Source of the DNA: an uncultured Actinomycetota bacterium | GTDB taxonomy: Bacteria > Actinomycetota > Actinomycetes > UBA12327 | Direction: 5' to 3' | NCBI GenBank assembly: GCA_963850215.1 | Contig: CAWKKI010000004.1 | Location: 72,682-136,681, forward strand | DNA length: 64,000 bases | Shown here: positions 7,803-47,317 of the stretch, piece after piece | How positions within the stretch are numbered: position 1 is the first letter of the stretch | How the letters are laid out: every line of letters starts with the position of its first letter | Translations under genes and position numbers: made by a program | Notes under the pieces: model-generated | What the model saw: the letters and a program-made list of their open reading frames with translations, nothing else | Database searches by the model: none | What the model was told of the DNA's origin: nothing

Positions 7803-8197
7803 GCCAAGACCTTCTGCAGTTTGAGCGCGGCGGTGTCGCACGCTGGGTTCAACCCGTTGGAGCGCCGCGACAGTTGGATCGCGGGGAACGTCTGACCATC
7901 GATCTGATACGACCCGAGTGAACTGCCTTCGCCTAGCGGCAACCCGTTGGGCGAAGCGCCATCAGACCGTCGTACGTCAGGCCCGATGAAGTGTGGATAG
8001 ACATCCGACATTGGGTATTGAAAGGTGATGTGAAACCAAATCCACGTCGAGGCTGGCGAGTACTTGCTGCCCAAGTCGATCGGATCAACAGTCACGTAGG
8101 CGCCACCTTGGTTGTCGGCGACCGCGGTGACGGTCGCGTCCGGGAACGCCTCACGCAGCTCGGTCACCGCCATCTCGACTTCGGGGGTCAGCGTCAT
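7784..8197 (-). CDS. E2/UBC-like protein (prokaryotic E2 family)
   Basis: ORF track, 137 aa, located between the Ubl and E1 genes. It has an N-terminal helix, then WIWFHITFQYPMSDVYPHFIGP, which resembles the UBC ..F.i.FP..YP...P.v.F..HPN segment. The single Cys (C120, NPACD) lies outside the loop after YPHF, and that loop is Ser-rich (RRSDGAS, EGSS). The assignment rests on context plus pattern, not on a search. Confidence 0.6.
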   Translation of the reverse strand: MTLTPEVEMAVTELREAFPDATVTAVADNQGGAYVTVDPIDLGSKYSPASTWIWFHITFQYPMSDVYPHFIGPDVRRSDGASPNGLPLGEGSSLGSYQIDGQTFPAIQLSRRSNGLNPACDTAALKLQKVLAWLQSL

Positions 8198-8461: not shown

Positions 8462-8559
8462 GGCGCCGCCTCCTTGATTGCAAATTAGGTAGTTGGTTGC
8501 TAATCTAGGATTCCACATTAGACGGAGAATTGCAACTTCGCAACCCAGGGGGCGCGGCG
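8462..8559. promoter_or_regulatory. 98-nt divergent intergenic region between the Ubl array and the HTH/ImmA pair
   Basis: Low-GC patch. It contains the self-complementary hexamer TTGCAA twice (gATTGCAAat near 8477 and aATTGCAAct near 8527). No promoter can be called with confidence. Confidence 0.3.
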
Positions 8560-8913
8560 GTGCCGAAACGCGGATGGTTTGACGCAGCAGGCTTCTACGA
8601 GGCCCTCGAGGCCGTTCGCCTGACCCGAAAGGTCAATTGGAAGGGCGTGGCCGCCGAGTCTGGGGTTAGCGCATCAACCCTGACGCGCATGGCGCAAGGG
8701 AAGCGGCCCGACGTCGACGGCCTCGCGGCGCTCACAGCCTGGTCTGGGCTGCGCGCCGATGACTTCGTTCGGAGCGACGACCAGATACCGGACCCAGAAC
8801 CTTTGGCGCTGATCACGACGCACCTACGCAGCGACAAGAACCTCAGCCCGGAAGCGGCGGCGGCCCTGGACGAACTCATCAAGGCCACTTACGAACGCCT
8901 GCGCCGGCAGTGA
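8560..8913 (+). CDS. XRE-type HTH regulator (CapH-like), copy A
   Basis: ORF track 8530..8913, trimmed to GTG 8560 by alignment with its paralogue 40226..40603. The HTH is NWKGVAAESGVSASTLTRMAQGKRPDVDGL. By eye it is roughly one third identical to copy B over the full length, including RPDxDG and PEP motifs. Confidence 0.75.
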   Translation: MPKRGWFDAAGFYEALEAVRLTRKVNWKGVAAESGVSASTLTRMAQGKRPDVDGLAALTAWSGLRADDFVRSDDQIPDPEPLALITTHLRSDKNLSPEAAAALDELIKATYERLRRQ

Positions 8914-25280: not shown

Positions 25281-25423
25281 GACTCGCTCCTCCACTCGAC
25301 AACACGGATGATGTGATGTCTAGTGGATCGACTACACAAAGTGTGTGTCTTGGAGTTGAACAACACACGTGTCGGGCTCTCACAGGTACGGTGCCGGAAC
25401 GGCCGACCTGGAGAGGAACGGGC

Positions 25424-26755
25424 ATGGGTTCAGAATTCGGGCGTCGGCTGCGGGCACTCCGCACCGAACAAGGCCTCCAACAGTCGGACTTGGCTGGTCC
25501 GGGTATATCGATTTCCTACGTGTCTATGCTGGAAAACGGCAACCGCGAGCCAACCGAACGGGTCGTGCAACACCTGGCCCAGGTCCTTAAGGTCCAGCCC
25601 CATGAGCTGACCGGACCCGTCCCCGCCGAACGGCTCGACCACGCACAGCGTCTTCAGATCGCGTCTGCCGAGTTCGCGTTGGGCAATGGCGAGGCTCACA
25701 AAGCGGCTAGCGAGTTCGCCTCGCTGGAGCCCACCCTGGGGTTGCCGGCCACGTGGGGGTTGGCTCGGGCCCTTGAAGGAATGGGCGATCTCGAGTTAGC
25801 TCTCAAGACACTCGAGCGTGTGGTGCATCTGGCTACCGAGGCGGGCGACTATCCCCTCTTGATACGAGCACACATCGCGCAGAGCCGGTGCATGGGCGAA
25901 ACTGGTGAGCACTCCGACGCCCTTAAAGCAGCCCTGAGGGCAACGAACACCGCCCACGAGCATGGATTACAGGGCACCGACGAACACGCCCAGGCAATGT
26001 CCACCCTGATCGCTCGCTACTACTGGCTAGGCGACATGACAAACGCGGAAGCGGCCGCGCATGAACTGCTCAAACTCGTCGACGCCGGCTCGTCGTGGAA
26101 GGCGCGCGGCTCGGCCTATTGGAATGCAGCCGGGGTCGCCGAGGCCAGTGGGGATCTCCCTCGAGCAGTTCAGTACGCACAACGCGCCGTGGCGCTGCTC
26201 AGTGAGGGCGACGACGAACGCATGTCGGGCCGCTGCGCCGTGGCGTGCGCATGGTTCTGGATGCGACAAGTCGACGCGACCGATCACCTCACCGAGATCC
26301 AAGCAATGCTTGAGCAAGCCAAACGCAAGTTGTCCCTGAGCGGTACTGAGACCGATCACGCTTACCTCGAAACGGAGCAGGCCCGCGCGGCGCTGCTCGG
26401 TGGAAATCCAGCAGAAGCAATCGAATTCTGCAACAGAGCACTGGATCGGCTCGAAACCAAACCCCGCGCCGAAACTGCTACCACCCTGCTCGTACTAGCG
26501 CAGTCACAGGTCGAAGTCGGCGAACAGGCAGACGCCCTAGCAACAGCGGATCGCCTGGAGATGACGCTGCATAGCCTTCAACACAACCGCAGTGCCGCCA
26601 ACAGTTGGCGAGGTCTCGCGGACCTGTACAAGAGGCTCGGTGCCGACGACGCCGCCTACCGTTCCCTCGAATACGCGCTCAATGCCCACGCCATATCGGT
26701 CAGTCCGACGCCGCAGGAGCGCAAGGCCGAGAGCTTGGCGCAGCCGGACAACTAG
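25424..26755 (+). CDS. XRE-HTH + TPR-like repeat transcriptional regulator (443 aa)
   Basis: ORF track 25313..26755, trimmed to ATG 25424, which has GGAGAGG upstream. The HTH is FGRRLRALRTEQGLQQSDLAGPGISISYVSMLENGNREPTERVVQHLAQVL. The remaining ~370 aa are Ala/Leu-rich helical repeats typical of TPR-like sensors. Confidence 0.8.
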   Translation: MGSEFGRRLRALRTEQGLQQSDLAGPGISISYVSMLENGNREPTERVVQHLAQVLKVQPHELTGPVPAERLDHAQRLQIASAEFALGNGEAHKAASEFASLEPTLGLPATWGLARALEGMGDLELALKTLERVVHLATEAGDYPLLIRAHIAQSRCMGETGEHSDALKAALRATNTAHEHGLQGTDEHAQAMSTLIARYYWLGDMTNAEAAAHELLKLVDAGSSWKARGSAYWNAAGVAEASGDLPRAVQYAQRAVALLSEGDDERMSGRCAVACAWFWMRQVDATDHLTEIQAMLEQAKRKLSLSGTETDHAYLETEQARAALLGGNPAEAIEFCNRALDRLETKPRAETATTLLVLAQSQVEVGEQADALATADRLEMTLHSLQHNRSAANSWRGLADLYKRLGADDAAYRSLEYALNAHAISVSPTPQERKAESLAQPDN

Positions 26756-33133: not shown

Positions 33134-33394
33134 ATGAGAAAATACCGTAGTAACAAAGGAAAACCAGCTCCGATGAAGAACGACGTAGGCAACCACGAAT
33201 CTGCGGATACCCGTGACTACGTGGTGCTTGTAGGCATCGATGATAGCGACGTCTACGTCATGAGCCGGAACAAGGATGCAGTGCGCAGAGAATTGGTGCG
33301 TCGCGTCGTAAAGCATGAGGTGGCGATCGTGCCACAAGACGTTCGAAGTGCATCCGAACGCCTATTCATCCGTCCGAGCATCGAAAGTTGCTAA
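33134..33394 (+). CDS. small hypothetical protein (86 aa)
   Basis: ORF track. ATG lies 10 nt after the deaminase stop, with GGAGG upstream. I recognise no family. Confidence 0.4.
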   Translation: MRKYRSNKGKPAPMKNDVGNHESADTRDYVVLVGIDDSDVYVMSRNKDAVRRELVRRVVKHEVAIVPQDVRSASERLFIRPSIESC

Positions 33395-33435
33395 ACGGGC
33401 GCATCACACCGGATCTGGCAGCGCTCTTCAGAGTG

Positions 33436-34284
33436 ATGATCGCTTCCCCAGGGGATATGGCTGCCGAGCGAGACGCTACCGAGCAAGTCATTGACTCCTG
33501 GAATCGCCTACACTCCGCCAACCTGAACTCAGTTCTGTTGGCATCTAGGTGGGAGTACGCCGCTCCAGTCATCGAGAATGTCGATGGCCAGCAGATCCTC
33601 AATCGAGATCTGCTCAACCGATCCCACATGCTCGTCGCGCTGTTTGGCGAAAGGATCGGCACGCAAACACCTCGTGCGTTGTCAGGCACCGTCGAGGAAA
33701 TTGATGAAGCCGTCGCCCGTGGCATGGCGGTCCATGTCTTCTTCAGCACCGCGCCTCTGAGCCGAAGCTTCGATCCAGTTCAACTGCGCCGACTCAAGGA
33801 GTACGAGGAGCAACTCAAGGAACGTGGCCTGGTTGGCTATTTCGAGAAGCCATCGGACCTTTCCGAACAAGTCATGCAATGCCTGGTCCGCGATGTCTAC
33901 GTATTCCTCGGCGGAAGTCAGTCAGCCCGCACCGATCCCCGAGGGCTGCTTCGCGTGTCGGCCGCGACTGACTCGATCGGCAGAACCGTCCTCACCGTTC
34001 GCAACGAAGGCACTTCTACTGCAGATGCCGTAGAGGTCGTGGTCCGGTCTGACGCAAGAACGAAGCCATTCACCCTCCTCAATCAGTCCCTGCGCCCTTC
34101 GATCCAACCTGGTGCGAACGTCCATTATGTGTTCAAGGACAAGATTGATCCGAAAGACGTTGTGTGGGTGGACTTGCGCTGGCGTGAGGAAGGCAAAGCC
34201 CGCGACGCTCGACTAAATCTAAGAACCAGTGCCGCAGTACCAAAAGGGGCGCTAGGTACAACCTCTGTGAACGTCGAGTCTTGA
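33436..34284 (+). CDS. DUF4062-like (TIR/deoxyribosyltransferase-like) N-domain protein with a beta-rich C-domain
   Basis: ORF track 33388..34284, trimmed to ATG 33436. MIASPGDMAAERDATEQVI..W..LVALFGERIGT..SGTVEEIDEAV..VHVFF follows the DUF4062 pattern as I recall it (vFiSSp.D...ER......i......W........D....i.g.ryG.....TE.E...A.......ff). Confidence 0.65.
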   Translation: MIASPGDMAAERDATEQVIDSWNRLHSANLNSVLLASRWEYAAPVIENVDGQQILNRDLLNRSHMLVALFGERIGTQTPRALSGTVEEIDEAVARGMAVHVFFSTAPLSRSFDPVQLRRLKEYEEQLKERGLVGYFEKPSDLSEQVMQCLVRDVYVFLGGSQSARTDPRGLLRVSAATDSIGRTVLTVRNEGTSTADAVEVVVRSDARTKPFTLLNQSLRPSIQPGANVHYVFKDKIDPKDVVWVDLRWREEGKARDARLNLRTSAAVPKGALGTTSVNVES

Positions 34285-34347: not shown

Positions 34348-34992
34348 TCATCTAGCCGTTGGAAGACCTACGACACGATTAAGCAAAGTGCAGTCTGTAA
34401 GCCGCACAAGGTATGGGGGGGCCAGGTCGGCCGTGAATGCAACCCGGTAGCTGGACGGCAGGCTTCCAAGCGCGCACGCAATCCGCCGAACAACCGACGT
34501 AACCTGCGACGCGCCCACCTTCGAGCCGGACCGGAGGTTCTGCACGTGGCAGGCCGCGAACGCTGGACTATTGGCTCCGCCAATTTGCAGCGGGACGTCG
34601 CGCGTACAGACGAGCGCGTAGTGGCTACGGGTCGTTGGGTTGTAGCGACTGGTTACACGGGAATGGACGGGCACTTCATAGGGGGCGCCATCCAGGCCAA
34701 GACCGCCAAGCCAGATTGCAACTTGTGCAGGTGCAACGTCTTTTGCCGACGCACGCGAGAGCATCGGGGTGAACACCACCCGCGGCTGGCACGTTAACTC
34801 AAGCAACGACCCGACCGACGGGCCGATCGCGTTTCCGATTCCCCAGAGGAAGAGTCCTTGATTGGCTTGGCGCTCGGCTTCCTTACGGGCCAGGATCGCA
34901 TCGGCATGCTCCCCCGACTCGTTTCCGTACTTGGTCCAGCAAAACACCTCTGGGATATCTTCGGTAGGACCAATGAACTGGTGATGGCCCAT
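34348..34992 (-). CDS. unrecognised family, paralogue X1 (214 aa)
   Basis: ORF track. By-eye alignment with 36739..37284 over most of the length: CWTKYGNESGEHADAILARKEAERQANQGLFLWGIGN vs LFMKVGTHANEDLSKIIVRKRAEIDAVGFAFWGYGGN; SHYALVC vs SRFALLI; RSGSKVGASQVTSVV vs PSRGKVGTDYIQGRV; APPYLVRL vs IEPYAAFL. Confidence 0.6.
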   Translation of the reverse strand: MGHHQFIGPTEDIPEVFCWTKYGNESGEHADAILARKEAERQANQGLFLWGIGNAIGPSVGSLLELTCQPRVVFTPMLSRASAKDVAPAQVAIWLGGLGLDGAPYEVPVHSRVTSRYNPTTRSHYALVCTRDVPLQIGGANSPAFAACHVQNLRSGSKVGASQVTSVVRRIACALGSLPSSYRVAFTADLAPPYLVRLTDCTLLNRVVGLPTAR

Positions 34993-35078
34993 TTTCTAAC
35001 ACTAGTCGCGCCAACCATGTCCAGCTGGGAGGACTCCCGGCGTGTTCCCTCGGTGACGCTTCTCAGGGAGATCCAACG

Positions 35079-36080
35079 ATGACGCTGTCTGCGCAGAACC
35101 TGCGCATCGAACTCCGCCGCGCCGGCATTGCCAATGCGGCAGTCGACGCGGTGTGGCCGCAGTGGTGGAGTTCCGATGCAGAGTCGTCACTTTCGGCCAC
35201 GGCCGAGTTGACGTTCACCGTCGCTAAACGCCTTGGGCTCTCGCCCGAAAGCTTGCTCGACGGCGAGGCGAAATTCATCTGGCGCGACGAGACGAAGTAC
35301 AAGCGCCTGAGCGCGAAAGTATCTCGAGAGGAGGCGGCCCTCTCCTCGTTCGGTTGCGCACTGGCGAGAGCCGCAGTCAAGGGGACCGGGCAGCCCGAAG
35401 GTCTCGCGCTAGAGGCCCGAACGATACGAGATGCGATCCTGGGTGGCAGCTCGGTTGTGGATGCGCTATCCGTTTTGTCATTCGCGTGGGGCATCGGCAT
35501 TCCGGTCCTCCAGCTTCGCGTCTTTCCACTCAACCAAAAACGCATGCACGCCATGTCAGTTGGCGTTCGCGGGCGCGCTGTGATTCTGCTCGCGCGCGAA
35601 GAGTCTTACTTGGCACCGATGGCCTTCACGGTTGCGCACGAACTCGGCCATGTCATGCTCGGCCACCTTTCCAGTAGTGGCGCGGTTGTGGACGTCGAAG
35701 CACCGATGGATTGGACAGATCCTGGCGACGATGAAGAGGGAGCCGCAGACCGGTTCGCTCTGGAGCTTCTAACTGGGCAAGTGGCCCCTGAGGTGATAGC
35801 CAGCACAGGCGTCTTCTCTGCCACCCAACTCTCGCGGGCGGTCCGTGAACAGGGCCCTGCTCTAGGGATCGATCCAGGCATGCTCGCCTTGTGCGCCGGT
35901 TACACGACCAAGCAGTGGGACAAGGCGTTCGGAGCCTTGAAAACAATCCCGCCCGGTCAGCAGGACGTTGCCGCGTTTGTTAATGCGATCGCCAATTCGC
36001 AGTTGGCTTGGTCGGAATTATCTGTCGACGCAATTGACTACCTGCGGGCGGTTATGGGGCTGTGGGAAGATCGTGTGTGA
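35079..36080 (+). CDS. ImmA/IrrE-family metallopeptidase with an extended N-terminal region (333 aa)
   Basis: ORF track. HExxH in FTVAHELGHVMLGH and a downstream EEGAADRFALELL. I do not recognise the N-terminal ~170 aa. Confidence 0.75.
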   Translation: MTLSAQNLRIELRRAGIANAAVDAVWPQWWSSDAESSLSATAELTFTVAKRLGLSPESLLDGEAKFIWRDETKYKRLSAKVSREEAALSSFGCALARAAVKGTGQPEGLALEARTIRDAILGGSSVVDALSVLSFAWGIGIPVLQLRVFPLNQKRMHAMSVGVRGRAVILLAREESYLAPMAFTVAHELGHVMLGHLSSSGAVVDVEAPMDWTDPGDDEEGAADRFALELLTGQVAPEVIASTGVFSATQLSRAVREQGPALGIDPGMLALCAGYTTKQWDKAFGALKTIPPGQQDVAAFVNAIANSQLAWSELSVDAIDYLRAVMGLWEDRV

Positions 36081-36750
36081 AATCCTTCTCGACGTTGATG
36101 TCGTCATCAAGCTGACTGCCTATGACCTCTTGGACAAGATTGCACACCCCGGATGCGAGACACCATGCGAGCAAAGAGCCGGGGTTACAGCCGCTACCCG
36201 ATACGTTGCGACGAGTCAACTGAAGCGGCGGGCGGCCGACCCCAAGGTTGCCATTGCGCGTCTCGAAGGGTACTTGGACGTCGCGAGCATTCTCGAGCCG
36301 ACGCAGGAGGAAATTGAGTTCGCCGCCCGTCTCGAGAGTGCGGCCACCAGACAAGACCTCGAGCTTGGTACCGGGGAAAGCCAGATCTGCGCCATCGCCA
36401 TTTTCCGCGCTGTCCCGGCAATCCTGACGGGCGACAAGCGTGCAATTGCGACCGCGGAACTGCTCCTGCATTCAGTTCCCCAACTAAGTCAACTGGCAGC
36501 GCGCGTAGCGTGCCTGGAACAGGCTGTCCAACTCACTGTCGAACGCATCGGTGCGGCCACGGTCCGAAATCACGTCTTAGCCGAGCGGAACATGGACACC
36601 GCCCTTGGCGTCTGTTTTGAGGCCACGAGAGTGTCTGTGCCGGCGAACTTCGAGCCAGTTGGTTTGGCCAGTTACATAAGCAGCATGCGAGTGACGGCAC
36701 CGACTCTACTGATGTCGGGAGATTCGCTACATCTGCGGTCAGTTACGTAG
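36073..36750 (+). CDS. PIN-like domain protein candidate (225 aa)
   Basis: ORF track 35968..36750, trimmed to GTG 36073, which overlaps the ImmA stop by 8 nt. Acidic PIN-type positions: ILLDVDVVIKL (first Asp), GTGESQICAIA (Glu) and ILTGDKRAI (Asp). Assignment is by pattern only. Confidence 0.5.
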   Translation: MCEILLDVDVVIKLTAYDLLDKIAHPGCETPCEQRAGVTAATRYVATSQLKRRAADPKVAIARLEGYLDVASILEPTQEEIEFAARLESAATRQDLELGTGESQICAIAIFRAVPAILTGDKRAIATAELLLHSVPQLSQLAARVACLEQAVQLTVERIGAATVRNHVLAERNMDTALGVCFEATRVSVPANFEPVGLASYISSMRVTAPTLLMSGDSLHLRSVT

Positions 36751-37284
36751 GAAAGCCGCGTATGGCTCGATGACATTTGCGCGCAGTTCAATGTTGAGAA
36801 GTTTTGGATCACCCGCGGGTTCGTCGACAACATCGAGGCAGGCCTTGTCTACACGGCCCTGGATGTAGTCGGTCCCTACCTTGCCGCGACTGGGTCCGAT
36901 GGCCACGCGAGTCAATGAAAGGTCGACCTCGTCATCCACTTCTTCCAAGGAGTTGATCAACAGCGCAAATCGGGAGCCAACACAGTTGATTTCTGGGGGG
37001 ACAGGCATCCAATTAATCCCATCCGACGAATACTCTTCCGCACGCACCTGTTCCGCAAAGTGGTTCGAGACCATTGGGTGCATCGCCAAGACGATTGGGC
37101 CGGGCGCGGCGAGGGCGAAGGGCTGAACCATGCTTGTCGGGTTGCACGTGTTGCCCCCATAGCCCCAGAACGCGAAGCCGACGGCATCGATCTCCGCACG
37201 CTTGCGCACGATGATCTTCGACAAGTCCTCGTTCGCGTGGGTTCCGACCTTCATGAACAAGATGTGGTCACCGGCCTGGATCAC
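36739..37284 (-). CDS. unrecognised family, paralogue X2 (181 aa)
   Basis: ORF track. Its start overlaps the stop of 37281..38315 by 4 nt. It is homologous by eye to 34348..34992 (see that entry). Confidence 0.65.
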   Translation of the reverse strand: MIQAGDHILFMKVGTHANEDLSKIIVRKRAEIDAVGFAFWGYGGNTCNPTSMVQPFALAAPGPIVLAMHPMVSNHFAEQVRAEEYSSDGINWMPVPPEINCVGSRFALLINSLEEVDDEVDLSLTRVAIGPSRGKVGTDYIQGRVDKACLDVVDEPAGDPKLLNIELRANVIEPYAAFLRN

Positions 37285-38315
37285 GCCTCAGCCTCCACGT
37301 CCAGCAATGCAAACTCGTATTCCGAACTGTTGGCCTTGCCATAGTCGACACGCTTCTTCTCCAGGACATAGTGCACCTTCGGACTGGCAGACTCACCGTA
37401 GAAGTGCCGCAACTGAACTGGGTCAGTGATCCCGAGGCTCTGAGGCACATGACCCGCACCGGGGATGGAAGCGATCATGAGGTTGCAAGATTTCAGGTCG
37501 GGAGCATCGTCAAGGTGATAAGCGTGCAAGCGCGGCATCATTCGACTTATGTAGAAATGCTCGTTTAGCGCGAACTCCTGCACCCGATGGAGCACGGTTC
37601 TGGGCCAATCCAAATCGGGGTCGTCCGCGATCACCACCGCCCCTTCCCCCGAATAGTGAAGGGCCTCCATCCCGCGCCGCATGAAGACCTTGACGCTCTC
37701 CCCCTCGTTACTGGCTCCCCAGGGCGGATTCGTGTAGAAGCAGTCGAACGGCTCAGCCGCGGGGAACGCATCGAGACAGTTGTAGAGCACCGCATCCAAC
37801 GTTGAGAGGCCCTCGCGGTCAGCGAACCGCTTTACCGCCATCACAATCCGCTCATCGAAGTCGTAGACGGTGATCTGGGCCGGAGCGGTTCGAAGGATTC
37901 GTTTCGCAGACAAGTAGGCGGTGCAGACGCTGATTGCATCACCGTCTCCAATGAACGCAAGTCGCTTGCCGTCTGCCCACCGCGAGACGAACTCACTCTG
38001 CATCACCATGTCACCGGTCTTCATATAGATCTGGTCGAACTCGCGGAGCGGCCTCGGGCGGTTTTGCACCACGTCCGAGACCGCGTTGATCGCGGCCTTC
38101 AGATCAATCTCTTCTGGCATGACCTGCCTGCCTAACTGGAGAATTGGCATACGATGGATGCTGTCCTGAAGATCCTGACTTGCACACGTCGTCCACCAGC
38201 GGTCAACGCGATTCGGCACGTGCGAAAGTAGTGGATCCTTGCGCGCAAGGTGGGCGATCTTCGCGTGACTGCCCAGATACAACGCCGAACCGCGTGTAAT
38301 GCGCGGGTCAACCAC
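37281..38315 (-). CDS. DUF43/BpsA-like class I SAM-dependent transferase with an NPPW motif
   Basis: ORF track, 344 aa (internal alternative start at 38120). Motif I-like KRLAFIGDGDAISV, acidic beta-2 end ITVYDFDERIV, and motif IV FDCFYTNPPWG. The upstream REFDQIYMKTGDMVMQSEFV resembles the DQ..T.eT segment of DUF43 proteins as I recall them. Confidence 0.65.
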   Translation of the reverse strand: MVDPRITRGSALYLGSHAKIAHLARKDPLLSHVPNRVDRWWTTCASQDLQDSIHRMPILQLGRQVMPEEIDLKAAINAVSDVVQNRPRPLREFDQIYMKTGDMVMQSEFVSRWADGKRLAFIGDGDAISVCTAYLSAKRILRTAPAQITVYDFDERIVMAVKRFADREGLSTLDAVLYNCLDAFPAAEPFDCFYTNPPWGASNEGESVKVFMRRGMEALHYSGEGAVVIADDPDLDWPRTVLHRVQEFALNEHFYISRMMPRLHAYHLDDAPDLKSCNLMIASIPGAGHVPQSLGITDPVQLRHFYGESASPKVHYVLEKKRVDYGKANSSEYEFALLDVEAEA

Positions 38316-38624
38316 CCGTGGATCGAGCCGTAGCGGGCCCCGAAATTTGTTCTCACTTCAGTTGCGCTTAGTACCGGCGCGGCAAGGAACTTCGGGGCGC
38401 GTCTACCAGACGTTGACCGAGGTTGCCGCGCCGGTCGATCAGCGGGCCGTGACTGCGGTTCCGCGCGGAGCGGTCCGGCTCGCCCGGCGCCGCCGAAGGT
38501 ATCGCCTCGATGACCACGTCACTAACCCACCAGCCCTCGTTTCAATAGTCGCCTCTCACGAACCGCTTCGTGACCCGCGGGCAGAGCCCTCCCATTCTCT
38601 TCGCGAGCAGACGAAGGCTCGTCC

Positions 38625-40080: not shown

Positions 40081-40225
40081 GAGGTTCTCTCCATCTCTGG
40101 GGCTCGAGGGATCGTGCATGTCGCTTTCGACCCGCTGACTCAAGTTTAGAACACTTGTGCGTCGAGTTTCAACCAATGCACCGAAAGTGCGACACTGGAG
40201 TGAGTCGATGCTCTTGGGGGGGCCC

Positions 40226-40603
40226 ATGACCAAGACGAAGATCGATGTGGAAGGTCTGTACGCAGCACTCGACGCCCAACGGGATGCCCAGGGCTTGTCC
40301 TGGCGCCAACTCGCGCGCGAGGTCGGAGTCAGCCCGTCGCTGTTGTCGCGTTTGGGTAACCAGTTACGCCCGGACGCCGACGGGTTCGCCACCTTGGTCC
40401 GCTGGCTGAACATGCCTGCTGAAAAGTTCATGGTCGATAGCGCTGGGGCGTCACGAGCCCGGCCCGAACCTGATCTAGTAACCCAACTCGCACCGCTGCT
40501 GAGGGCGCGCCGGGATCTGGACAAGGGCGACGTCGCGTACCTGGAGGAAGTGATCCGTGCCACCGTCCGACATGCGAAGCACACACGTGAGGAACCCGAG
40601 TGA
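40226..40603 (+). CDS. XRE-type HTH regulator (CapH-like), copy B
   Basis: ORF track 40157..40603, trimmed to ATG 40226. The HTH is SWRQLAREVGVSPSLLSRLGNQLRPDADGF. It is a paralogue of 8560..8913 and is divergent from Ubl copy B across 145 nt. Confidence 0.75.
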   Translation: MTKTKIDVEGLYAALDAQRDAQGLSWRQLAREVGVSPSLLSRLGNQLRPDADGFATLVRWLNMPAEKFMVDSAGASRARPEPDLVTQLAPLLRARRDLDKGDVAYLEEVIRATVRHAKHTREEPE

Positions 40604-40679
40604 GCCGTGCGGGCAACTTCAACAAGTCAGCCTGTCGGCGAGTTGCCGTTGAATTGCGCGAGAAATTGGTCTGCAGGCT

Positions 40680-41531
40680 ATGGATGCCTTCGACCCATGG
40701 GGTCTGGCTGCGCTATATGGGATCGACGTCGTCTCGCTGAGCGAACTACCGATCGACGACGAAGTAGTCAGCTACTTCACGATTGATCGCCCTGAGGTGT
40801 TTTCCGGTGCATTGATCCCCATCGGCCACGGCGCGGTCATCGTAGAGAACGACTCCCATCCGCTAGTACGCCGTCGCTCCACGATGGGTCACGAACTCGC
40901 CCACGTGGTTGCTGAGCATCAATTCGATGCACGGCTGACGAACGACCGAGGGTGTCGCCTCGCGAACCAAACACAGGAGGACGAGGCGGCTGAGATTGCG
41001 GGTGAACTCCTCGTCCCGTTCGACGCTGCCCGAAGCCTCGCTCGGAGCAAGGCCACGAACGAGGAGGTCGCGCTCCAGTTCGGCGTCAGCGTCGGGCTAG
41101 CCCGCTGGAGGATGGAGGCCACTGGGGCTCGCATCATCGCTCGACGCGAAGGCGCCGCCCACCAGCGGGCAATTCGCTCGTGGGCCGTTCGTTGGAGCCA
41201 CCCCTGCAGTCAGCGCAGTGCGCGATCTACGCAAGGCCCCTCGCGAGCGCGCTGCGGTGCCGGGATTTGCGTGCGCGCTCACCGGAAGTTGCACGTTCCC
41301 AGGGCGGGTGTCGTGACGCGGCAATCGAAACTGACGCGCGCAGTGACTGGCTGGGCGGAGCCGCATTCGTGTGGCTATTGTCGGCGAACTCATCACCCAA
41401 GCAAGGCCTCAACTTGGCTGTCGAATTGCGGAGGTACACGTGCGCTTGCTCATCAGTCGAACTCAGCAGGATGTGAAGGGGATGCTAGGAGGTCACAAGG
41501 GCGTGCAGTTCACGTTGTCGCATCGACTTGA
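40680..41531 (+). CDS. ImmA/IrrE-family metallopeptidase (CapP-like), copy B, with a suspect C-terminal tail
   Basis: ORF track, 283 aa. HExxH in STMGHELAHVVAEH, and EDEAAEIAGELLVP. Homology to copy A ends near aa 160 (~41160). The remaining Arg/Ala-rich tail looks like read-through or out-of-frame sequence. Confidence 0.65.
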   Translation: MDAFDPWGLAALYGIDVVSLSELPIDDEVVSYFTIDRPEVFSGALIPIGHGAVIVENDSHPLVRRRSTMGHELAHVVAEHQFDARLTNDRGCRLANQTQEDEAAEIAGELLVPFDAARSLARSKATNEEVALQFGVSVGLARWRMEATGARIIARREGAAHQRAIRSWAVRWSHPCSQRSARSTQGPSRARCGAGICVRAHRKLHVPRAGVVTRQSKLTRAVTGWAEPHSCGYCRRTHHPSKASTWLSNCGGTRALAHQSNSAGCEGDARRSQGRAVHVVAST

Positions 41532-44921: not shown

Positions 44922-45144
44922 GGCGCGGACCACCAACCGTCGACCCCGTGATGAACGGCGACTAAGTGTGCGCGGACTACGGCACGACCCACCTGACCCG
45001 AAGCGACTCTCACGAGCGTTCATCGGGCTGGCGCTGGCTCGGGCCGAAGCCGAAGCCCGCGCACAGCAAGTAAGCGATCCCGGAGCGACTCGAGTTGACG
45101 ATCACGACGCCCAGAAGGACGGGGGTCACGATGGAATCAGCTGA
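44905..45144 (+). CDS. small basic protein (79 aa)
   Basis: ORF track. It overlaps the MT-A70 stop. LSVRGLRHDPPDPKRLSRAFIGLALARAE shares a motif with the C-terminus of 146..565. Confidence 0.4.
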   Translation: MMPRRRARTTNRRPRDERRLSVRGLRHDPPDPKRLSRAFIGLALARAEAEARAQQVSDPGATRVDDHDAQKDGGHDGIS

Positions 45145-47317
45145 CACGACCGCAGTCCCCCGCGACGGCTGGGTGCATTCGGAGTTGCATCTGCCGCGTC
45201 CACTTGAGGTCGAGCAGGTCGAAACGATGCTGCTTCGCCTGGCGGCCGACCGGGCTGCTCCCCCGCTGGTGTTCGAGGCCCGCGCCGAACAAGGGCAACT
45301 GGTGCAGCACCTCGTGGGATGCCCTGCCGAGCATGTGGTCTGGGTGCAGCGCACGCTGCGCGACCTGCTTCCCGGTCTCGACATCGACACCCTCACCACA
45401 CCACGACGGGCGGTGCAGCGATCGGTCCGGCTGCGCATGCGGCCACGCGCCCTAGCGTTGTCGACCAAACGCGCCGAAGCAGTCGGGCTCACTCTTCTCT
45501 CCGCGCTGGATGCCCGGCTGCATCAAGGCGATCGGCTGGTGCTGCAAGTCATGCTCGGTCCGCGCCTGACCCCGAAGCACCTGCCACGCACCGTCACCGA
45601 CCCGACAGCACCCTGGTGGCAGTTGCTCAGCCACGGGGAGGTCGATGCGACCACGCCGGTGCGCGAGCAGATCGACGCCCGTTCCGGGCAGCACGGCTTT
45701 GCCGCCACCGTCCGCATCGGTGCCAGTGCCCACACCGCTGAACGTCGTCAGCAGCTGATCATTGGTGTCCTCGGCGCACTGTCAACATCGCAGGAACGCG
45801 GCACCTACCTCGATCTGACATTCGAACCGGCGCGACGCATAAACGAACCGAAAACGCCATGGCGATGGCCCCTTCGACTCGGCGCCAGCGAAGTCACCGG
45901 ATTGTTGGCATGGCCGCTGGGCGAACGCGACCTTCCCGGCGTCGCGCCCCTACATCCCCGGCCGCTACGGGTACCGGAGGGAGTCTGCGGATCCGAACGC
46001 ATCTTCGCCGTCCCCGCAGCCCCCGGGCCACCGCATCCGGTCGGCATCTGGGCTCGCGACATCACCTCACACCTGGTGACCACAGGGCCGACCGGTTCGG
46101 GCAAGAGCACCGTGCTTGAGGCACTCATCCGCGCCGATATTGCCGCAGGTCGTCCCGTGTTGGTGATCGACCCGAAACGCCAGCTCGTCGATGACGTCAT
46201 CGAACGGGCCGTGCCGGCCGATCGGGTAGACGACGTGGTGGTGATCGATCCAGCCGATGCCGCCGCTATCGGTCACGTGGTTGGGTTCAACCCCCTCGAC
46301 GTGGGCGATCGCGATCCCGACGTGGTAGTCGACGGACTGGTTGCCGTGCTCAAGGCGGTGTTTCACGACGGGTGGGGTCCACGCACCGAAGACGTAGTGC
46401 ATTCCGGTTTGCTCACACTGGTGCGAGCGAGCACAGAACGCGCGGAGCCGTTCACGCTGCTCGACCTGCCCCGGCTGCTGACCGACGAACGCTTCCGCAC
46501 ATCGGTGATCGGACATGTGCTCGGCGATCCCGGTCTGGATTCGTTCTGGGCCTGGTACCTCGCGCTGAGCCCCGGCGCGCAAGCCCACGCCATCGCCGCA
46601 CCGCTGAACAAGCTGCGCCAATACCTGCTGCGACCCAGCCTGCGCGCCATCCTCGGCCAACCCCGCCCGAAGTTTCGGCTGCGCGACTTGTTCACCGACA
46701 ACAAGGTGGTGCTGGTCCCGCTCAACGAGGCACTCATCGGGCCACTGACCGCCCAGCTCCTCGGGTCGCTCATCGTGGCGGAAACGTGGTCAGCCACCTT
46801 GGAGCGCGCCAAGGAACGTAAGCCAGGCAGCCGCCCGGCCAGCGTCTACATCGATGAGGTGCAGCAGTACTTGCACCTTCCAACGTCTATCGATGACGCG
46901 CTGAGCCGTAGCCGCTCGCTCGGAGTGGGCTGGCACCTGGCGCACCAGGCACGTGCTCAACTGACGACCTCCACCCGGGCCGCGATCGACTCCAACGCCA
47001 AGTCGAAGATCGTGTTCCGGCCACTGGACCCTGACGACGCGCACGCCATGGCCAAGCAAGCACCTGACTTGCAGCCGGTCGACTTCTTGAGTCTCGGCCA
47101 ATTTCAGGCCTACGCGCACCTGACTGCAGACGGCGCACCCACCGGATGGGCGCTGGTGCGGACCCTGCCGCCACCCGAGCCCACCGGACTGGCCGCACGC
47201 GTGCGCGCTGCCAGCCGCGAGCACTATGCGTCGCCGATCCCAACCTCTGCCCACAGCGCCGCCGCAGCCGAGGCGGATGGGCATCTGCCGGTGGGCCGCA
47301 AGCGGAGGCAGGGATGA
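45095..47317 (+). CDS. coupling-protein-like (TraD/TraG/VirD4-type, FtsK/HerA-superfamily) P-loop ATPase
   Basis: ORF track, 740 aa (alternative start at 45131). Walker A is TTGPTGSGKSTVLEAL and Walker B is ASVYIDEVQQY, followed by GVGWHLAHQARAQL. The size and the neighbouring replication-relaxation gene fit a conjugative DNA-transfer ATPase. Confidence 0.75.
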   Translation: MTITTPRRTGVTMESADTTAVPRDGWVHSELHLPRPLEVEQVETMLLRLAADRAAPPLVFEARAEQGQLVQHLVGCPAEHVVWVQRTLRDLLPGLDIDTLTTPRRAVQRSVRLRMRPRALALSTKRAEAVGLTLLSALDARLHQGDRLVLQVMLGPRLTPKHLPRTVTDPTAPWWQLLSHGEVDATTPVREQIDARSGQHGFAATVRIGASAHTAERRQQLIIGVLGALSTSQERGTYLDLTFEPARRINEPKTPWRWPLRLGASEVTGLLAWPLGERDLPGVAPLHPRPLRVPEGVCGSERIFAVPAAPGPPHPVGIWARDITSHLVTTGPTGSGKSTVLEALIRADIAAGRPVLVIDPKRQLVDDVIERAVPADRVDDVVVIDPADAAAIGHVVGFNPLDVGDRDPDVVVDGLVAVLKAVFHDGWGPRTEDVVHSGLLTLVRASTERAEPFTLLDLPRLLTDERFRTSVIGHVLGDPGLDSFWAWYLALSPGAQAHAIAAPLNKLRQYLLRPSLRAILGQPRPKFRLRDLFTDNKVVLVPLNEALIGPLTAQLLGSLIVAETWSATLERAKERKPGSRPASVYIDEVQQYLHLPTSIDDALSRSRSLGVGWHLAHQARAQLTTSTRAAIDSNAKSKIVFRPLDPDDAHAMAKQAPDLQPVDFLSLGQFQAYAHLTADGAPTGWALVRTLPPPEPTGLAARVRAASREHYASPIPTSAHSAAAAEADGHLPVGRKRRQG

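What the first reader, a model, noticed from the sequence alone, without database searches (positions are those of the whole stretch)
34348..38315. Two paralogues of an unrecognised family flanking an ImmA + PIN-like pair, one of them translationally coupled to a DUF43-like NPPW transferase
**Seen in the sequence**
- 37281..38315 is a Rossmann transferase (GDGD motif I, DFDE, FYTNPPWG).
- It overlaps by 4 nt the start of 36739..37284 (X2, 181 aa).
- X2 aligns by eye over its whole length with 34348..34992 (X1, 214 aa). Shared blocks are K.G.E..E....I..RK.AE, F.WG.G(G)N, S(H/R)(Y/F)AL(V/L), G(S/R).KVG and (A/I)(P/E)PY.
- Between them, on the other strand, an HExxH ImmA/IrrE protein (35079..36080) overlaps by 8 nt a protein with PIN-like acidic positions (36073..36750).

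**Established knowledge**
- NPPW/NPPY motifs mark amino-group methyl or alkyl transferases.
- DUF43/BpsA enzymes transfer aminopropyl groups.
- COG2856 peptidases paired with PIN-like proteins were predicted to be toxin-antitoxin or abortive-infection modules (Makarova et al. 2009).

**Inference**
- This is a compact locus of five unexplained genes inside a defence island, between a dCTP deaminase cluster and a Ubl locus.
- It may be a modification-plus-sensor system or two stacked systems. I cannot name the X family.
Basis: partly seen in the sequence, partly recalled or inferred. Interest (0 to 1): 0.75.

Follow-up and report, generated by a model that had tools for sequence, protein, structure and literature searches.

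The report
Mobile protease–PIN–alkyltransferase conflict cassette
The five genes form one horizontally mobile cassette found in at least seven bacterial phyla: an ImmA-type protease and a PIN RNase (a toxin–antitoxin-like pair) always joined to a BpsA-like alkyl-transferase and two paralogues of a protein family with no recognisable relatives. It is probably an undescribed anti-phage or addiction system.

Summary
All five ORFs exist. X1 and X2 are true paralogues (hhalign 93.9 %, E 1.6e-7, full length). The transferase is BpsA_C-like with invariant GDGD and NPPW motifs. The "PIN-like" protein is a PIN domain by fold (VapC matches, probability 1.0). The peptidase is an ImmA/IrrE/CapP/RmrA-type HExxH zincin.

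This is one system, not two stacked ones.
- 53 of 57 evaluable genome loci seeded with X1 carry all partner genes in fixed order. So do 28 of 28 metagenome loci seeded with X2.
- Pairwise distances of the five genes correlate (r 0.73–0.90).
- The MT/X2 and PEP/PIN start–stop overlaps are conserved, as are the face-to-face 3' ends of X2 and PIN.

Three points were missed.
- Most relatives carry a sixth gene, an Xre-type HTH upstream of the peptidase. The window's actinobacterial clade lacks it.
- About 17 % of loci add an adenylate-kinase-like gene.
- The transferase probably starts at 38120, not 38315.

X has no Pfam, PADLOC, NCBIfam, PHROG or PDB sequence match. A confident X2 model has no Foldseek match in PDB or BFVD.

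Best model: a Rosmer-like protease/PIN arm gated by a writer (MT–X2) and a paralogous reader (basic X1). The substrate is unknown.

The parts
34348..34992 (-). X1: 214-aa basic paralogue of the X family, transcribed divergently from the peptidase gene
   Evidence: ORF. 295 close homologues; 812 clusters at 50 % identity with E<=1e-3. Homologous to X2. No Pfam, PADLOC, NCBIfam, PHROG or PDB sequence hit. Family median pI 8.8. SQVT motif in 92 of 94 loci.
34993..35078 (.). 86-bp divergent intergenic region between X1 and the peptidase. In most other lineages this gap is 330-450 bp and holds an Xre-type HTH gene that is absent here.
   Evidence: No consensus promoter found.
35079..36080 (+). PEP: 333-aa ImmA/IrrE/CapP/RmrA-type HExxH zinc peptidase
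   Evidence: Pfam M78 5.2e-4, below cut-off. PADLOC capP 4e-9 and RmrA 1.7e-6. phrog_18577 1.5e-48 over the full length. CapP 7t5t 3.3e-4. H187, E188, H191, D217, E220 and D224 invariant. A homologue is named ImmA/IrrE family metallo-endopeptidase by NCBI.
36073..36750 (+). PIN: 225-aa VapC-like PIN-domain nuclease (about residues 1-150) with a C-terminal helical extension. It overlaps the PEP stop by 8 nt.
   Evidence: AlphaFold pLDDT 94.4. Foldseek top ~49 hits are all PIN/VapC. D7, D9, K13, E102, T119, D121, K122 and E149 invariant in both alignments; D175 invariant in A4 and nearly invariant in A3. phrog_15597 4.5e-8. No Pfam hit for 24 members.
36739..37284 (-). X2: 181-aa X-family paralogue, translationally coupled to the transferase (GTGA overlap). 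Its 3' end overlaps the 3' end of PIN by 12 nt.
   Evidence: 1660 homologues. AlphaFold pLDDT 89.8, pTM 0.86. No Foldseek hit with E<=0.001 in PDB or BFVD. WGYGG in 94 of 94 loci. MT stop and X2 start lie within -13..+17 nt in 146 of 146 loci, with a 4-nt overlap in 66. One in-frame MT-X2 fusion in L068.
37281..38120 (-). MT: 279-aa BpsA_C-like Rossmann N-alkyl-transferase (motif I GDGD, DFDER, motif IV NPPWG, acidic C-terminal tail). The ORF stays open up to the GTG at 38315, but homologues start at the ATG at 38120.
   Evidence: Pfam BpsA_C 2.2e-19. PDB 2qm3 8e-14, BpsA 5xnc 3.9e-13, METTL5 0.007. PADLOC mad2 1.4e-9. Alignment and start. Motifs in 94 of 94 loci. Family pI 5.1.

Best explanation
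The five genes are one horizontally mobile conflict system with two arms joined by a pair of paralogues. It probably acts in anti-phage abortive infection or as an addiction module.

**Arm 1 (effector).** An ImmA/RmrA-type zinc peptidase (PEP) is co-translated with a VapC-like PIN RNase. In most relatives an Xre HTH gene precedes them, which gives the known HTH/COG2856/PIN (Rosmer-like) toxin-antitoxin design. PIN is the toxic effector. PEP, with HTH where present, holds it in check or releases it.

**Arm 2 (writer).** A BpsA-like transferase with an invariant NPPW acceptor motif works as a heteromer with X2. It alkylates (methyl, or aminopropyl if it uses dcSAM) an amino or amide nitrogen on a conserved target.

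**Link (reader).** X1 is the basic paralogue of X2 and always sits at the 5' end of the PEP gene. I propose that it binds the same target as X2, reads its modification state, and passes this to PEP and PIN.

**Proposed sequence of events.** When infection or loss of the cassette stops the modification, or unmodified target appears, PIN is unleashed and cleaves RNA.

**Shown:** gene families, catalytic-motif conservation, paralogy, fixed synteny, coupling, co-inheritance, mobility.

**Inferred:** the MT-X2 complex, a shared ligand for X1 and X2, the direction of signalling, the substrate, and the defence phenotype.
For: **One unit**
- 53 of 57 evaluable X1-seeded genome loci have MT, X2, PIN and PEP. 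So do 28 of 28 evaluable X2-seeded metagenome loci. MT lies upstream of X2 in 73 of 73 loci, and PIN downstream in 64 of 65.
- Pairwise distances of all five genes correlate, r 0.73-0.90, over 94 loci.
- MT/X2 and PEP/PIN start-stop overlaps are conserved.
- The X2 and PIN stop codons overlap or lie within 14 nt in 144 of 146 loci.
- One MT-X2 fusion exists.

**Active enzymes**
- GDGD, NPPW and HExxH are present in 94 of 94 loci, and the PIN acidic motifs in 80-94 of 94.

**Effector arm**
- PIN fold confirmed.
- PEP matches capP, RmrA and CapP.
- An HTH gene sits upstream of PEP in about 60 loci.
- The HTH/COG2856/PIN and Rosmer precedents are in PMC5499597 and PMC10440598.

**Writer arm**
- MT aligns with BpsA. 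GDGD falls on GDDD, and N of NPPW falls on Asp225, the residue that activates the acceptor amine (PMC12979288).
- The nearest non-BpsA relatives are amino-methyltransferases: MTS, METTL5 (which needs the partner TRMT112) and mad2, an m6A DNA methyltransferase.

**Reader link**
- X1 and X2 are homologous.
- X1 is basic while MT, X2, PIN and PEP are acidic.
- X1 takes the place of HTH as first gene of the PEP-PIN operon in 10 of the 28 evaluable X2-seeded metagenome loci (13 loci in all).

**Mobility and defence context**
- The cassette occurs in 7 phyla, on plasmids and on two IMG/VR contigs.
- Neighbours are integrases, transposases, resolvases and scattered defence genes.
- The window is a defence island.
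Against: - There is no experimental phenotype. The system is absent from PADLOC 2023 and from the searchable literature.
- The X fold gives no functional clue, so ligand binding by X1 and X2 is pure inference.
- Many loci sit among ordinary metabolic genes. Only a minority of immediate neighbours are defence genes.
- No hit was found in sequenced phage genomes.
- The window clade lacks the HTH, so the Rosmer-like regulatory logic may differ here.
- PIN could be controlled without any input from the MT-X2 arm.
- The acidic MT-X2 pair is not what one expects of a nucleic-acid methyltransferase.
Confidence: 0.45

Rival explanations
1. Restriction-modification logic on nucleic acid. MT-X2 is a base amino-methyltransferase (m6A, m4C or m2G) in which X2 is the target-recognition subunit. 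X1 directs the PIN nuclease to the unmodified site on invader DNA or RNA. PEP (with HTH) only regulates expression.
For: - The NPPW motif IV is typical of exocyclic-amino methyltransferases.
- PADLOC gives mad2 at 1.4e-9, and mad2 is the m6A DNA methyltransferase of MADS.
- MTS and METTL5 are the next relatives.
- MT lacks any recognition domain of its own (279 aa).
- X1 is basic.
- Operons combining a PIN-like nuclease with HsdM/HsdS have been noted in PMC5499597.
Against: - MT (61 % mean identity) and X2 (56 %) are uniformly conserved across phyla, with no hypervariable specificity region. This is unlike restriction-modification specificity subunits.
- MT-X2 is acidic.
- VapC-like PIN domains are RNases, and host and phage share the host's RNA machinery.
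- A dedicated protease is not part of any known restriction-modification design.
Confidence: 0.2
2. Enzymatic-antitoxin (type VII-like) logic. MT-X2 modifies a protein of the system itself and keeps the toxin arm silent. One candidate is the invariant Gln of the X1 'SQVT' loop, methylated as HemK/PrmC does. The PIN domain itself is another. X2 docks on its paralogue X1 as a pseudo-homodimer.
For: - NPPY/NPPW enzymes include the glutamine methyltransferases HemK/PrmC (own knowledge).
- SQVT is present in 92 of 94 X1 proteins and absent from X2.
- Paralogues commonly heterodimerise.
- MT and X2 are acidic and X1 is basic.
- BpsA itself forms covalent adducts on protein carboxylates (PMC12979288).
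Against: - No direct evidence exists for a protein substrate.
- The nearest relatives of known substrate act on polyamines, rRNA or DNA.
- X1 occurs alone in a few genomes (L061, L063, L078).
Confidence: 0.15
3. Small-molecule signalling or metabolite logic. MT-X2, helped by the optional adenylate-kinase-like protein, makes a modified nucleotide or polyamine. X1 senses it to control PEP and PIN, or the product is itself antiviral.
For: - MT has BpsA ancestry, and BpsA is a polyamine aminopropyltransferase.
- The D160-equivalent Asp and the acidic C-terminal tail are retained.
- An adenylate-kinase-like gene sits in or next to the MT-X2 operon in 29 of 171 loci.
- The conserved glycine-rich loop WGxGGN follows a beta-strand and precedes a helix in the X2 model, as in phosphate-binding loops (inference).
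Against: - The kinase is absent from more than 80 % of loci, including the window.
- Asp159 and Asp225 of BpsA are replaced by Gly and Asn.
- The BpsA N-terminal domain is missing.
- No nucleotide-binding family matches X.
Confidence: 0.1
4. Two independent systems that merely sit side by side: a transferase-X2 pair, and an ImmA-PIN toxin-antitoxin pair with X1.
For: - ImmA-PIN(-HTH) modules exist on their own elsewhere.
- PHROG families matching PEP and PIN exist, while X2 is absent from phage genomes.
Against: - Complete co-occurrence whichever gene seeds the search.
- Correlated divergence.
- Stop codons of the two operons overlap or lie within 14 nt in 144 of 146 loci.
- Paralogues are split between the two halves.
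- In the Pseudomonas rearrangement both halves move together.
Confidence: 0.03
5. A housekeeping polyamine-biosynthesis locus (a bacterial BpsA) with unrelated neighbours.
For: - The Pfam BpsA_C match.
- The NCBI name 'bis-aminopropyl spermidine synthase family protein'.
Against: - GDDD is changed to GDGD and DPPE to NPPW, and there is no N-terminal domain.
- The hosts are mesophiles.
- Distribution is patchy and mobile, on plasmids and beside integrases.
- The gene is obligatorily linked to a PIN toxin and a protease.
Confidence: 0.02

Closest known systems
RosmerTA (RmrT/RmrA) and the HTH / COG2856 (ImmA, DUF955) / PIN-like three-component toxin-antitoxin modules (Makarova 2009; Matelska 2017, PMC5499597; Ernits 2023, PMC10440598)
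   Same: An ImmA-type HExxH peptidase gene is co-transcribed with a toxin, here a PIN nuclease. An Xre HTH lies upstream in most relatives. The elements are mobile and associated with defence. PADLOC RmrA models hit PEP.
   Different: - The HTH is a separate gene, and is absent in the window clade, rather than fused to the peptidase.
- The PIN is not DUF4411 or any Pfam PIN family by sequence.
- Three further genes (MT, X2, X1) are obligatorily attached, which no described Rosmer or three-component module has.
BpsA, N4-bis(aminopropyl)spermidine synthase (PDB 5xnc, 6j27; Pfam BpsA_C/DUF43)
   Same: Same catalytic Rossmann domain. Shared features are the 'RPxPxxxFDQxY' segment, Asp-rich motif I, the DxDER motif, a PP-containing motif IV and an acidic C-terminal tail.
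   Different: - GDGD replaces GDDD: the Asp159 equivalent is Gly.
- NPPW replaces DPPE: the Asp225 equivalent is Asn, followed by an aromatic residue as in base or glutamine amino-methyltransferases.
- The roughly 110-residue N-terminal domain is missing.
- The hosts are mesophilic and the gene lies in a mobile toxin-linked context.
- The donor (SAM or dcSAM) and the acceptor are unknown.
MADS mad2 and other N6-adenine / N4-cytosine methyltransferases of modification-based defence (R-M, BREX, MADS)
   Same: (N/D)PP(Y/F/W) motif IV. PADLOC mad2 1.4e-9 over the catalytic core. A modification enzyme is encoded with a nuclease.
   Different: - No recognition domain or S subunit is present.
- The partner is the unknown X2.
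- The sequence is uniformly conserved rather than diversifying in specificity.
- The nuclease is a VapC-like PIN, and a protease is present.
METTL5-TRMT112 and HemK2-TRMT112 (small amino-methyltransferases that need a small obligate partner)
   Same: A compact NPP(F/Y/W) methyltransferase is paired with a small co-expressed protein. METTL5 is the best non-BpsA PDB hit (E 0.007).
   Different: X2 is unrelated to TRMT112 by sequence or fold search. The analogy is architectural only.
ImmR/ImmA and CapH/CapP regulatory pairs
   Same: An Xre HTH plus a COG2856 peptidase. CapP is the closest solved relative of PEP.
   Different: Those pairs regulate a neighbouring element (ICE, CBASS). Here the peptidase is translationally coupled to a PIN toxin, and the HTH is dispensable in a whole clade.
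PrrC-EcoprrI (a latent anticodon nuclease kept silent by a modification enzyme complex)
   Same: The concept of an RNase effector physically or genetically tied to a modification enzyme and released on infection (own knowledge).
   Different: The proteins are unrelated. There is no evidence here for a physical complex or for a phage trigger.

Membership tests
PIN domain superfamily (VapC-like) | Three-layer alpha/beta/alpha PIN fold | tested here: met
   AlphaFold pLDDT 94.4. Foldseek hits to VapC/PIN: 3tnd_A E 5.8e-4, probability 1.0, TM(target) 0.69. About the top 49 hits are all PIN proteins.
PIN domain superfamily (VapC-like) | Three to four conserved acidic active-site residues | tested here: met
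   D7, E102 and D121 are invariant in 24 and 36 sequences, as is E149. D175 is invariant in A4 and nearly invariant in A3. Motifs present in 80-94 of 94 loci.
Pfam DUF4411 / other Pfam PIN families | Match to the family HMM | tested here: not met
   No Pfam PIN or DUF4411 hit for any of 24 members, even at E<=1. Only phrog_15597 matches, at 4.5e-8.
ImmA/IrrE (Peptidase_M78, COG2856) | HExxH plus a downstream acidic ligand within the M78 core | tested here: met
   H187, E188, H191 and D217, E220, D224 are invariant. HExxH in 94 of 94 loci. The profile aligns with CapP 7t5t across 'AHELGH...EEaAD.FA' at 3.3e-4.
ImmA/IrrE (Peptidase_M78, COG2856) | Pfam gathering score | tested here: inconclusive
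   PF06114 scores 20.3 bits against a cut-off of 22. Precomputed hits on homologues are to Peptidase_U49 (Lit), several of them weak. NCBI names a homologue ImmA/IrrE family.
RosmerTA | RmrA: HTH fused to an ImmA-like peptidase, acting as antitoxin to an adjacent toxin | tested here: inconclusive
   RmrA models hit only the peptidase core (best 1.7e-6). There is no fused HTH. A separate HTH gene occurs in about 60 relatives and is absent in the window. Antitoxin activity was not tested.
BpsA_C (DUF43) domain family | Match above the Pfam gathering score | tested here: met
   70.1 bits against a cut-off of 27, E 2.2e-19. PDB 2qm3 8e-14, 5xnc 3.9e-13.
BpsA enzyme (EC 2.5.1.128) | GDDD motif with Asp159/Asp160 holding the dcSAM aminopropyl group | tested here: not met
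   GDGD in 94 of 94 loci: the Asp159 equivalent is Gly and the Asp160 equivalent is kept (residue roles from PMC12979288).
BpsA enzyme (EC 2.5.1.128) | Asp225 (in TDPPE) activating the polyamine acceptor, and the N-terminal domain | tested here: not met
   NPPW replaces DPPE. The protein aligns only to the C-terminal catalytic domain and is 279 aa, against about 350 aa for BpsA.
BpsA enzyme (EC 2.5.1.128) | dcSAM-dependent aminopropyl transfer | not testable with these tools
   Needs an enzyme assay that distinguishes MTA from SAH as by-product.
Exocyclic-amino / glutamine N-methyltransferases (gamma/beta class) | Motif IV (N/D/S)PP(Y/F/W) | tested here: met
   NPPW in 94 of 94 loci. Hits to mad2 1.4e-9, MTS 1.1e-3 and METTL5 7e-3.
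Exocyclic-amino / glutamine N-methyltransferases (gamma/beta class) | Canonical glycine-rich SAM motif I (GxGxG) and a target-recognition domain | tested here: not met
   Motif I is GDGD. No extra domain lies beyond the Rossmann core and a roughly 75-residue C-terminal segment.
X family (X1/X2), as one family | Significant full-length homology between the two paralogues | tested here: met
   hhalign probability 93.9 %, E 1.6e-7, 164 aligned columns. Shared motifs are G-T-x-A-x-E, I..RK..E, WGxG(G)N, PMxS, YAL and PY.
PUA-like readers (YTH/EVE/ASCH), considered for X | Significant structural match | tested here: not met
   Only scattered YTH/THYN1 hits with E about 1, probability <=0.10 and TM <=0.23.
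Known defence systems (PADLOC-DB 2.0) | HMM hits to all components of a described system | tested here: not met
   X1, X2 and PIN have no hit. PEP and MT hit only generic catalytic cores.

The most novel reading that the evidence does not exclude
The transferase keeps the dcSAM-type acidic motif I and the acidic tail of BpsA. It would then aminopropylate, rather than methylate, an amino group on a macromolecule (RNA, DNA base or protein), with X2 as the substrate adaptor. X1 would be a new-fold reader of that mark that gates a protease/PIN suicide switch. This would be a self-marking chemistry and a reader/writer paralogue pair not known in any immune system.
Probability: 0.1. Interest if true: 0.92.

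Novelty: new variant of a known kind. Interest (0 to 1): 0.7.

Why it matters
If the cassette is an immune or addiction system, several things follow.
- It adds a widespread member to the prokaryotic defence catalogue. The X1 family alone has 812 clusters at 50 % identity, and the cassette occurs in seven phyla, on plasmids and on viral contigs.
- Current tools (PADLOC 2023, Pfam, NCBIfam) cannot see it.
- It would define a new protein family whose fold has no match in the two structure libraries searched. The family is used twice in one system.
- It would link the Rosmer/ImmA-PIN toxin-antitoxin world to a modification enzyme derived from polyamine aminopropyl-transferases. This raises the testable possibility of a modification chemistry or target not previously seen in defence.
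- The strict architecture gives clean genetic predictions: deletion of MT or X2 should be toxic only when PIN is catalytically active.

Tried and rejected
**Naming the X family**
1. Pfam, PADLOC, NCBIfam and PHROGs on the window proteins gave nothing.
2. Pfam on all 28 members of each alignment at E<=5 gave nothing.
3. PDB sequence profiles gave only noise: an antibody VH chimera and malic enzyme.
4. Foldseek of a confident X2 model against PDB and BFVD gave nothing with E<=0.001.
5. The repeated weak YTH/THYN1 hits were considered as a PUA-like reader lead. I rejected it as non-significant.

**Domain fusions of X1**
- I scanned ten long representatives. Only one had a known domain, P0375 with a ROS/MucR zinc finger.

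**Ideas about X2 considered from sequence**
- X2 as a pyruvoyl SAM decarboxylase: there is an invariant Ser in PMxS, but no fold or motif support, and X1 shares the motif.
- X2 as the detached BpsA N-terminal domain: no BpsA structure appeared among the Foldseek hits shown.

**Literature**
- No paper links BpsA-family genes to defence, and none mentions accessions of homologues.
- The DefensePredictor systems containing PIN domains (DS-3, DS-5) are different.

**Source contig**
- An exact look-up of X2 failed.

**DNA features**
- Promoter/terminator scan, repeats, Rfam and tRNA searches around the cassette showed nothing above chance.

**Phage genomes**
- tblastn of X2 and PEP against phage genomes gave no match.

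**Second HTH/ImmA pair at 40157..41531**
- No PDB sequence hit.

Full report
**Checking the observation.** The ORF list and a codon check confirm the five genes.
- X1: 34348..34992 (-), 214 aa.
- Peptidase (PEP): 35079..36080 (+), 333 aa.
- PIN-like protein: 36073..36750 (+), 225 aa, GTG start, 8-nt overlap with the PEP stop.
- X2: 36739..37284 (-), 181 aa.
- Transferase (MT): its TGA stop overlaps the GTG start of X2 (GTGA), behind a GGAGG Shine-Dalgarno sequence.

X2 and PIN converge, and their 3' ends overlap by 12 nt. One correction is needed. In an alignment of 25 homologues, every MT starts at the position of the ATG at 38120 ("M..EIDLKAAINA"). The real product is therefore probably 279 aa (37281..38120), and the 344-aa ORF from 38315 is over-extended.

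**Paralogy of X1 and X2.** Pairwise BLASTP sees only the N-terminal 59 residues (29 % identity, E 4e-4). Alignments of 28 homologues of each give a full-length profile-profile match (hhalign probability 93.9 %, E 1.6e-7, 164 columns). The two proteins are true, old paralogues.

**Gene families.**
- *MT.* It is a BpsA_C (DUF43) domain protein (Pfam E 2.2e-19, 70 bits against a cut-off of 27). Its family profile finds the archaeal and Thermus BpsA structures (2qm3 8e-14, 5xnc 3.9e-13) and then METTL5 (0.007). PADLOC gives the catalytic core of mad2 (1.4e-9), which is the m6A DNA methyltransferase of MADS.
- *MT compared with BpsA.* GDGD lies on the GDDD motif, so the Asp159 equivalent is Gly while the Asp160 equivalent is kept. 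The Asn of NPPW lies on Asp225 of "TDPPE", the residue said to activate the acceptor amine (residue roles from PMC12979288). An acidic C-terminal tail is also retained, but the BpsA N-terminal domain is absent. MT is therefore a BpsA relative whose acceptor motif has become the NPPW of base or glutamine amino-methyltransferases. Whether it uses SAM or dcSAM cannot be told from sequence.
- *PEP.* It has invariant HExxH and D/E ligands. It matches capP (4e-9) and the Rosmer antitoxin RmrA (1.7e-6) in PADLOC, CapP 7t5t by profile (3.3e-4) and phrog_18577 over its full length (1.5e-48). Pfam M78 is just below its cut-off.
- *PIN-like protein.* It has no Pfam or PDB sequence match, even across 24 members. 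An AlphaFold model built on 36 homologues (pLDDT 94.4, pTM 0.90) matches VapC/PIN toxins almost exclusively (3tnd_A E 5.8e-4, probability 1.0, TM 0.69). D7, E102, D121 and E149 are invariant, and D175 is invariant or nearly so. It is a PIN domain with a roughly 75-residue helical C-terminal extension.

**The X family remains unnamed.** Neither paralogue, nor any of 56 aligned members, matches Pfam. The two window proteins have no PADLOC, NCBIfam or PHROG match, and the two family profiles match no PDB sequence. A confident X2 model (pLDDT 89.8, pTM 0.86) has no Foldseek match with E<=0.001 in PDB (best 0.87) or BFVD (best 0.51). The scattered YTH/THYN1 hits (probability <=0.1, TM <=0.23) are not evidence.

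The model starts with a beta-alpha-beta-alpha-beta unit. The invariant WGYGGN loop sits between strand 2 and helix 2, where phosphate-binding loops usually sit. This is only a hint. The family is large: 1660 X2-like and 295 X1-like 90 % clusters by word search, and 812 clusters at 50 % identity for the X1 profile (345 with E<=1e-30). Nearly all are stand-alone proteins of 180-290 aa. One carries a C-terminal ROS/MucR zinc finger.

**One system, not two.** Contexts of three X2 homologues (Jiangella, Streptomyces, Mycobacterium) already showed the same five genes in the same order within unrelated neighbourhoods. I then fetched 80 genome loci seeded with X1, 80 metagenome loci seeded with X2 and two IMG/VR contigs. 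All were annotated with family HMMs.
- Of 57 X1-seeded loci with enough flank, 53 have MT, X2, PIN and PEP.
- The four exceptions are two solitary X1 copies beside Mu-like transposases in one genome, one decayed locus and one other locus.
- Of 28 evaluable X2-seeded loci, 28 are complete. MT is upstream of X2 in 73 of 73 loci, and PIN follows in 64 of 65.
- Across 94 complete loci, the pairwise distances of the five proteins correlate (r 0.73-0.90).
- MT stop and X2 start lie within -13..+17 nt in 146 of 146 loci, with the 4-nt overlap in 66.
- PEP stop and PIN start mostly overlap by 8 or 4 nt.
- The stop codons of the two convergent operons overlap or lie within 14 nt in 144 of 146 loci. This leaves no room for terminators.
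- One Solirubrobacterales MAG has an in-frame MT-X2 fusion.
- Catalytic motifs are kept everywhere: GDGD, NPPW and HExxH in 94 of 94 loci.

1. *A sixth gene.* In most lineages the gap between PEP and X1 is a constant 330-450 bp. It holds a conserved gene of about 110 aa on the PEP strand. This gene encodes an Xre-type HTH ("GVSQxTVSRAL") with a conserved C-terminal "WDGSxEHAxAIA" motif (HTH_37 5e-6 and HTH_3 1.6e-4). The canonical cassette is thus MT-X2 > < PIN-PEP-HTH | X1 >. Its effector arm is the HTH/COG2856/PIN three-component module described by comparative genomics (PMC5499597), and it is close to RosmerTA (PMC10440598).
2. *The window clade lacks the HTH.* Its relatives are mostly Actinomycetota, such as Nocardioides, Jiangella, Mycobacterium and Streptomyces. 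They have only an 86-140 bp gap and no HTH.
3. *A third architecture.* X1 is co-directional and takes the HTH's place as first gene of the PEP-PIN operon in 10 of the 28 evaluable loci.
4. *A Pseudomonas rearrangement.* MT-X2 sits on the other side but stays attached.
5. *An optional kinase-like gene.* An adenylate-kinase-like P-loop gene (PDB 1ki9, 5e-7) lies in or beside the MT-X2 operon, or converges on X1, in 29 of 171 loci. It is not in the window.

**Mobility and context.**
- The cassette occurs in Actinomycetota, Acidobacteriota, alpha-, beta- and gamma-Proteobacteria, Cyanobacteriota, Chloroflexota, Armatimonadota and Nitrospirota.
- It is on five plasmids and two IMG/VR contigs.
- It is not found in sequenced phage genomes.
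- The 123 immediate neighbours are dominated by the kinase-like gene, integrases, transposases, resolvases, VapE/Toprim and conjugation genes. A scatter of defence genes is also present: Mokosh, Shosta, Shedu, type I S subunit and viperin.
- On the Agrobacterium plasmid the cassette sits between an AAA-ATPase/helicase pair and a Tn7-like transposon. There NCBI names MT "bis-aminopropyl spermidine synthase family protein" and PEP "ImmA/IrrE family metallo-endopeptidase". X2 and PIN are listed as hypothetical, and X1 is absent from the gene table.
- In the window the cassette lies between an anti-phage dCTP deaminase plus a DUF4062/PDC-S60-like gene and a DUF6527/E1/Multiubiquitin locus. Further defence-like genes lie on both sides.

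**Clues to mechanism.**
- MT (61 % mean pairwise identity) and X2 (56 %) are the most conserved genes. X1 (44 %), PEP (42 %) and PIN (35 %) evolve faster.
- Neither MT nor X2 has a hypervariable segment. This argues for a fixed, conserved substrate rather than diversifying DNA specificities.
- MT, X2, PIN and PEP are acidic (median pI 5.1, 5.9, 4.9, 5.5). X1 is basic (8.8), like the HTH (9.4).
- X1 always abuts the 5' end of the PEP operon and can replace the HTH there.
- X1 carries an X1-specific, nearly invariant "SQVT" loop (92 of 94 loci).

**Interpretation.** The simplest reading of one paralogue in each arm is that both bind the same thing.
- X2 presents a target to the transferase and acts as a writer adaptor.
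- X1 reads that target, or docks on X2, and couples its state to the ImmA-type peptidase and the PIN RNase.
- The effector arm then behaves like a Rosmer-type toxin-antitoxin or abortive-infection switch.

My estimates are about 0.9 that this is a single functional system and about 0.65 that it serves defence or addiction. For the writer/reader logic including the stated arm assignments I estimate about 0.45. The nature of the target is open: an RNA or DNA base, a protein glutamine such as the one in X1's SQVT loop, or a nucleotide or polyamine. These appear as rival sub-models. "Two stacked systems" and "housekeeping polyamine synthesis" are contradicted by the co-occurrence and motif data.

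**Comparison with known systems and novelty.**
- The PEP-PIN(-HTH) arm is a member of a known kind, the ImmA/COG2856-PIN three-component (Rosmer-like) modules.
- MT is a member of the BpsA_C domain family. It fails the defining features of the BpsA enzyme: GDDD, Asp225 and the N-terminal domain.
- X1, X2 and the PIN subfamily are absent from the libraries searched here.
- No PADLOC system and no paper in the searchable library describes the combination.

I classify it as a new variant of a known kind: a toxin-antitoxin/abortive-infection module elaborated with a modification arm. A minority reading, macromolecule aminopropylation with a new-fold reader, would be categorically new.

**Limits.**
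- Gene calls in fetched loci are my own ORF and HMM heuristics.
- Structural novelty of X is relative to PDB and BFVD only, because no AFDB search was available.
- No multimer prediction, enzyme assay or phenotype was possible.
- The source organism of the window was not identified. The closest homologues are actinobacterial.

Noticed in passing
L015-L087 and L113-L167 (e.g. L020:7608-7946, minus strand); absent at window 34993-35078: A conserved Xre-type HTH gene of about 110 aa ('GVSQxTVSRAL' plus a C-terminal 'WDGSxEHAxAIA' motif) sits directly upstream of the peptidase in most relatives. It is missing in the window's actinobacterial clade, where the gap is only 86-140 bp.
   Followed up: yes
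e.g. L031:8612-9208 (-), L021:3718-4332 (+), L066:8722-9393 (-), L090:7550-8134 (+): An adenylate-kinase-like P-loop gene (Pfam AAA_17/AAA_18; PDB 1ki9 5e-7) is attached to the cassette in 29 of 171 loci. It usually lies in the MT-X2 operon or converges on X1. It is not present in the window.
   Followed up: partly
L068:4421-5971 (+): In-frame fusion of the transferase and X2 in a Solirubrobacterales MAG. It may be a true Rosetta-stone fusion or an assembly error.
   Followed up: partly
P0375 (396 aa): An X1-family protein with a C-terminal ROS/MucR zinc-finger DNA-binding domain (Pfam 1e-7). It is the only informative fusion found.
   Followed up: no
L061:7872-8588 and L063:7872-8588 (one Bryobacterales chromosome); L078: Solitary X1 genes without the rest of the cassette. 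In L061 and L063 they lie beside Mu-like transposase genes, so they are possibly remnants or an independent use of X1.
   Followed up: partly
window 40157-40603 (+) and 40680-41531 (+): A second Xre-HTH plus HExxH ('MGHELAHV') pair lies next to the DUF6527/E1/Multiubiquitin locus. By position it looks like a CapH/CapP-type regulator of that system. It has no PDB sequence hit.
   Followed up: partly
window 8509-8913 (+): A stop-to-stop ORF with a weak match (E 4.5e-5) to the cassette's HTH family, 25 kb away from the cassette. Its neighbours were not examined.
   Followed up: no
window 4799-6316 (-), 6357-7841 (-), 45095-47317 (+), 25313-26755 (+): Further defence-like genes in the window: PDC-M36A (3.6e-18), an E1-E2-like protein (2.6e-11), a mad8-like protein (2e-17) and an HTH_VI/control-protein-like domain. 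The island extends well beyond the finding.
   Followed up: partly
window 38373-38385 / 38423-38435: A perfect 13-nt inverted repeat with a 37-nt spacer lies in the 760-bp gap between the DUF6527 gene and the transferase start. It could be a terminator of the minus-strand Ubl operon or an operator.
   Followed up: no
window 33388-34284 (+): A DUF4062 / PDC-S60-like gene (PADLOC 1.4e-17 over its N-terminal 160 residues) converges on X1, with 63 bp between the two stop codons. It does not accompany the cassette in other genomes, so it is probably a separate single-gene system.
   Followed up: partly
146 loci; window 36739-36750: The X2 and PIN stop codons overlap (91 loci) or lie within 14 nt (53 loci). 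The two convergent operons must therefore transcribe into each other, which may provide antisense or collision-based regulation.
   Followed up: partly
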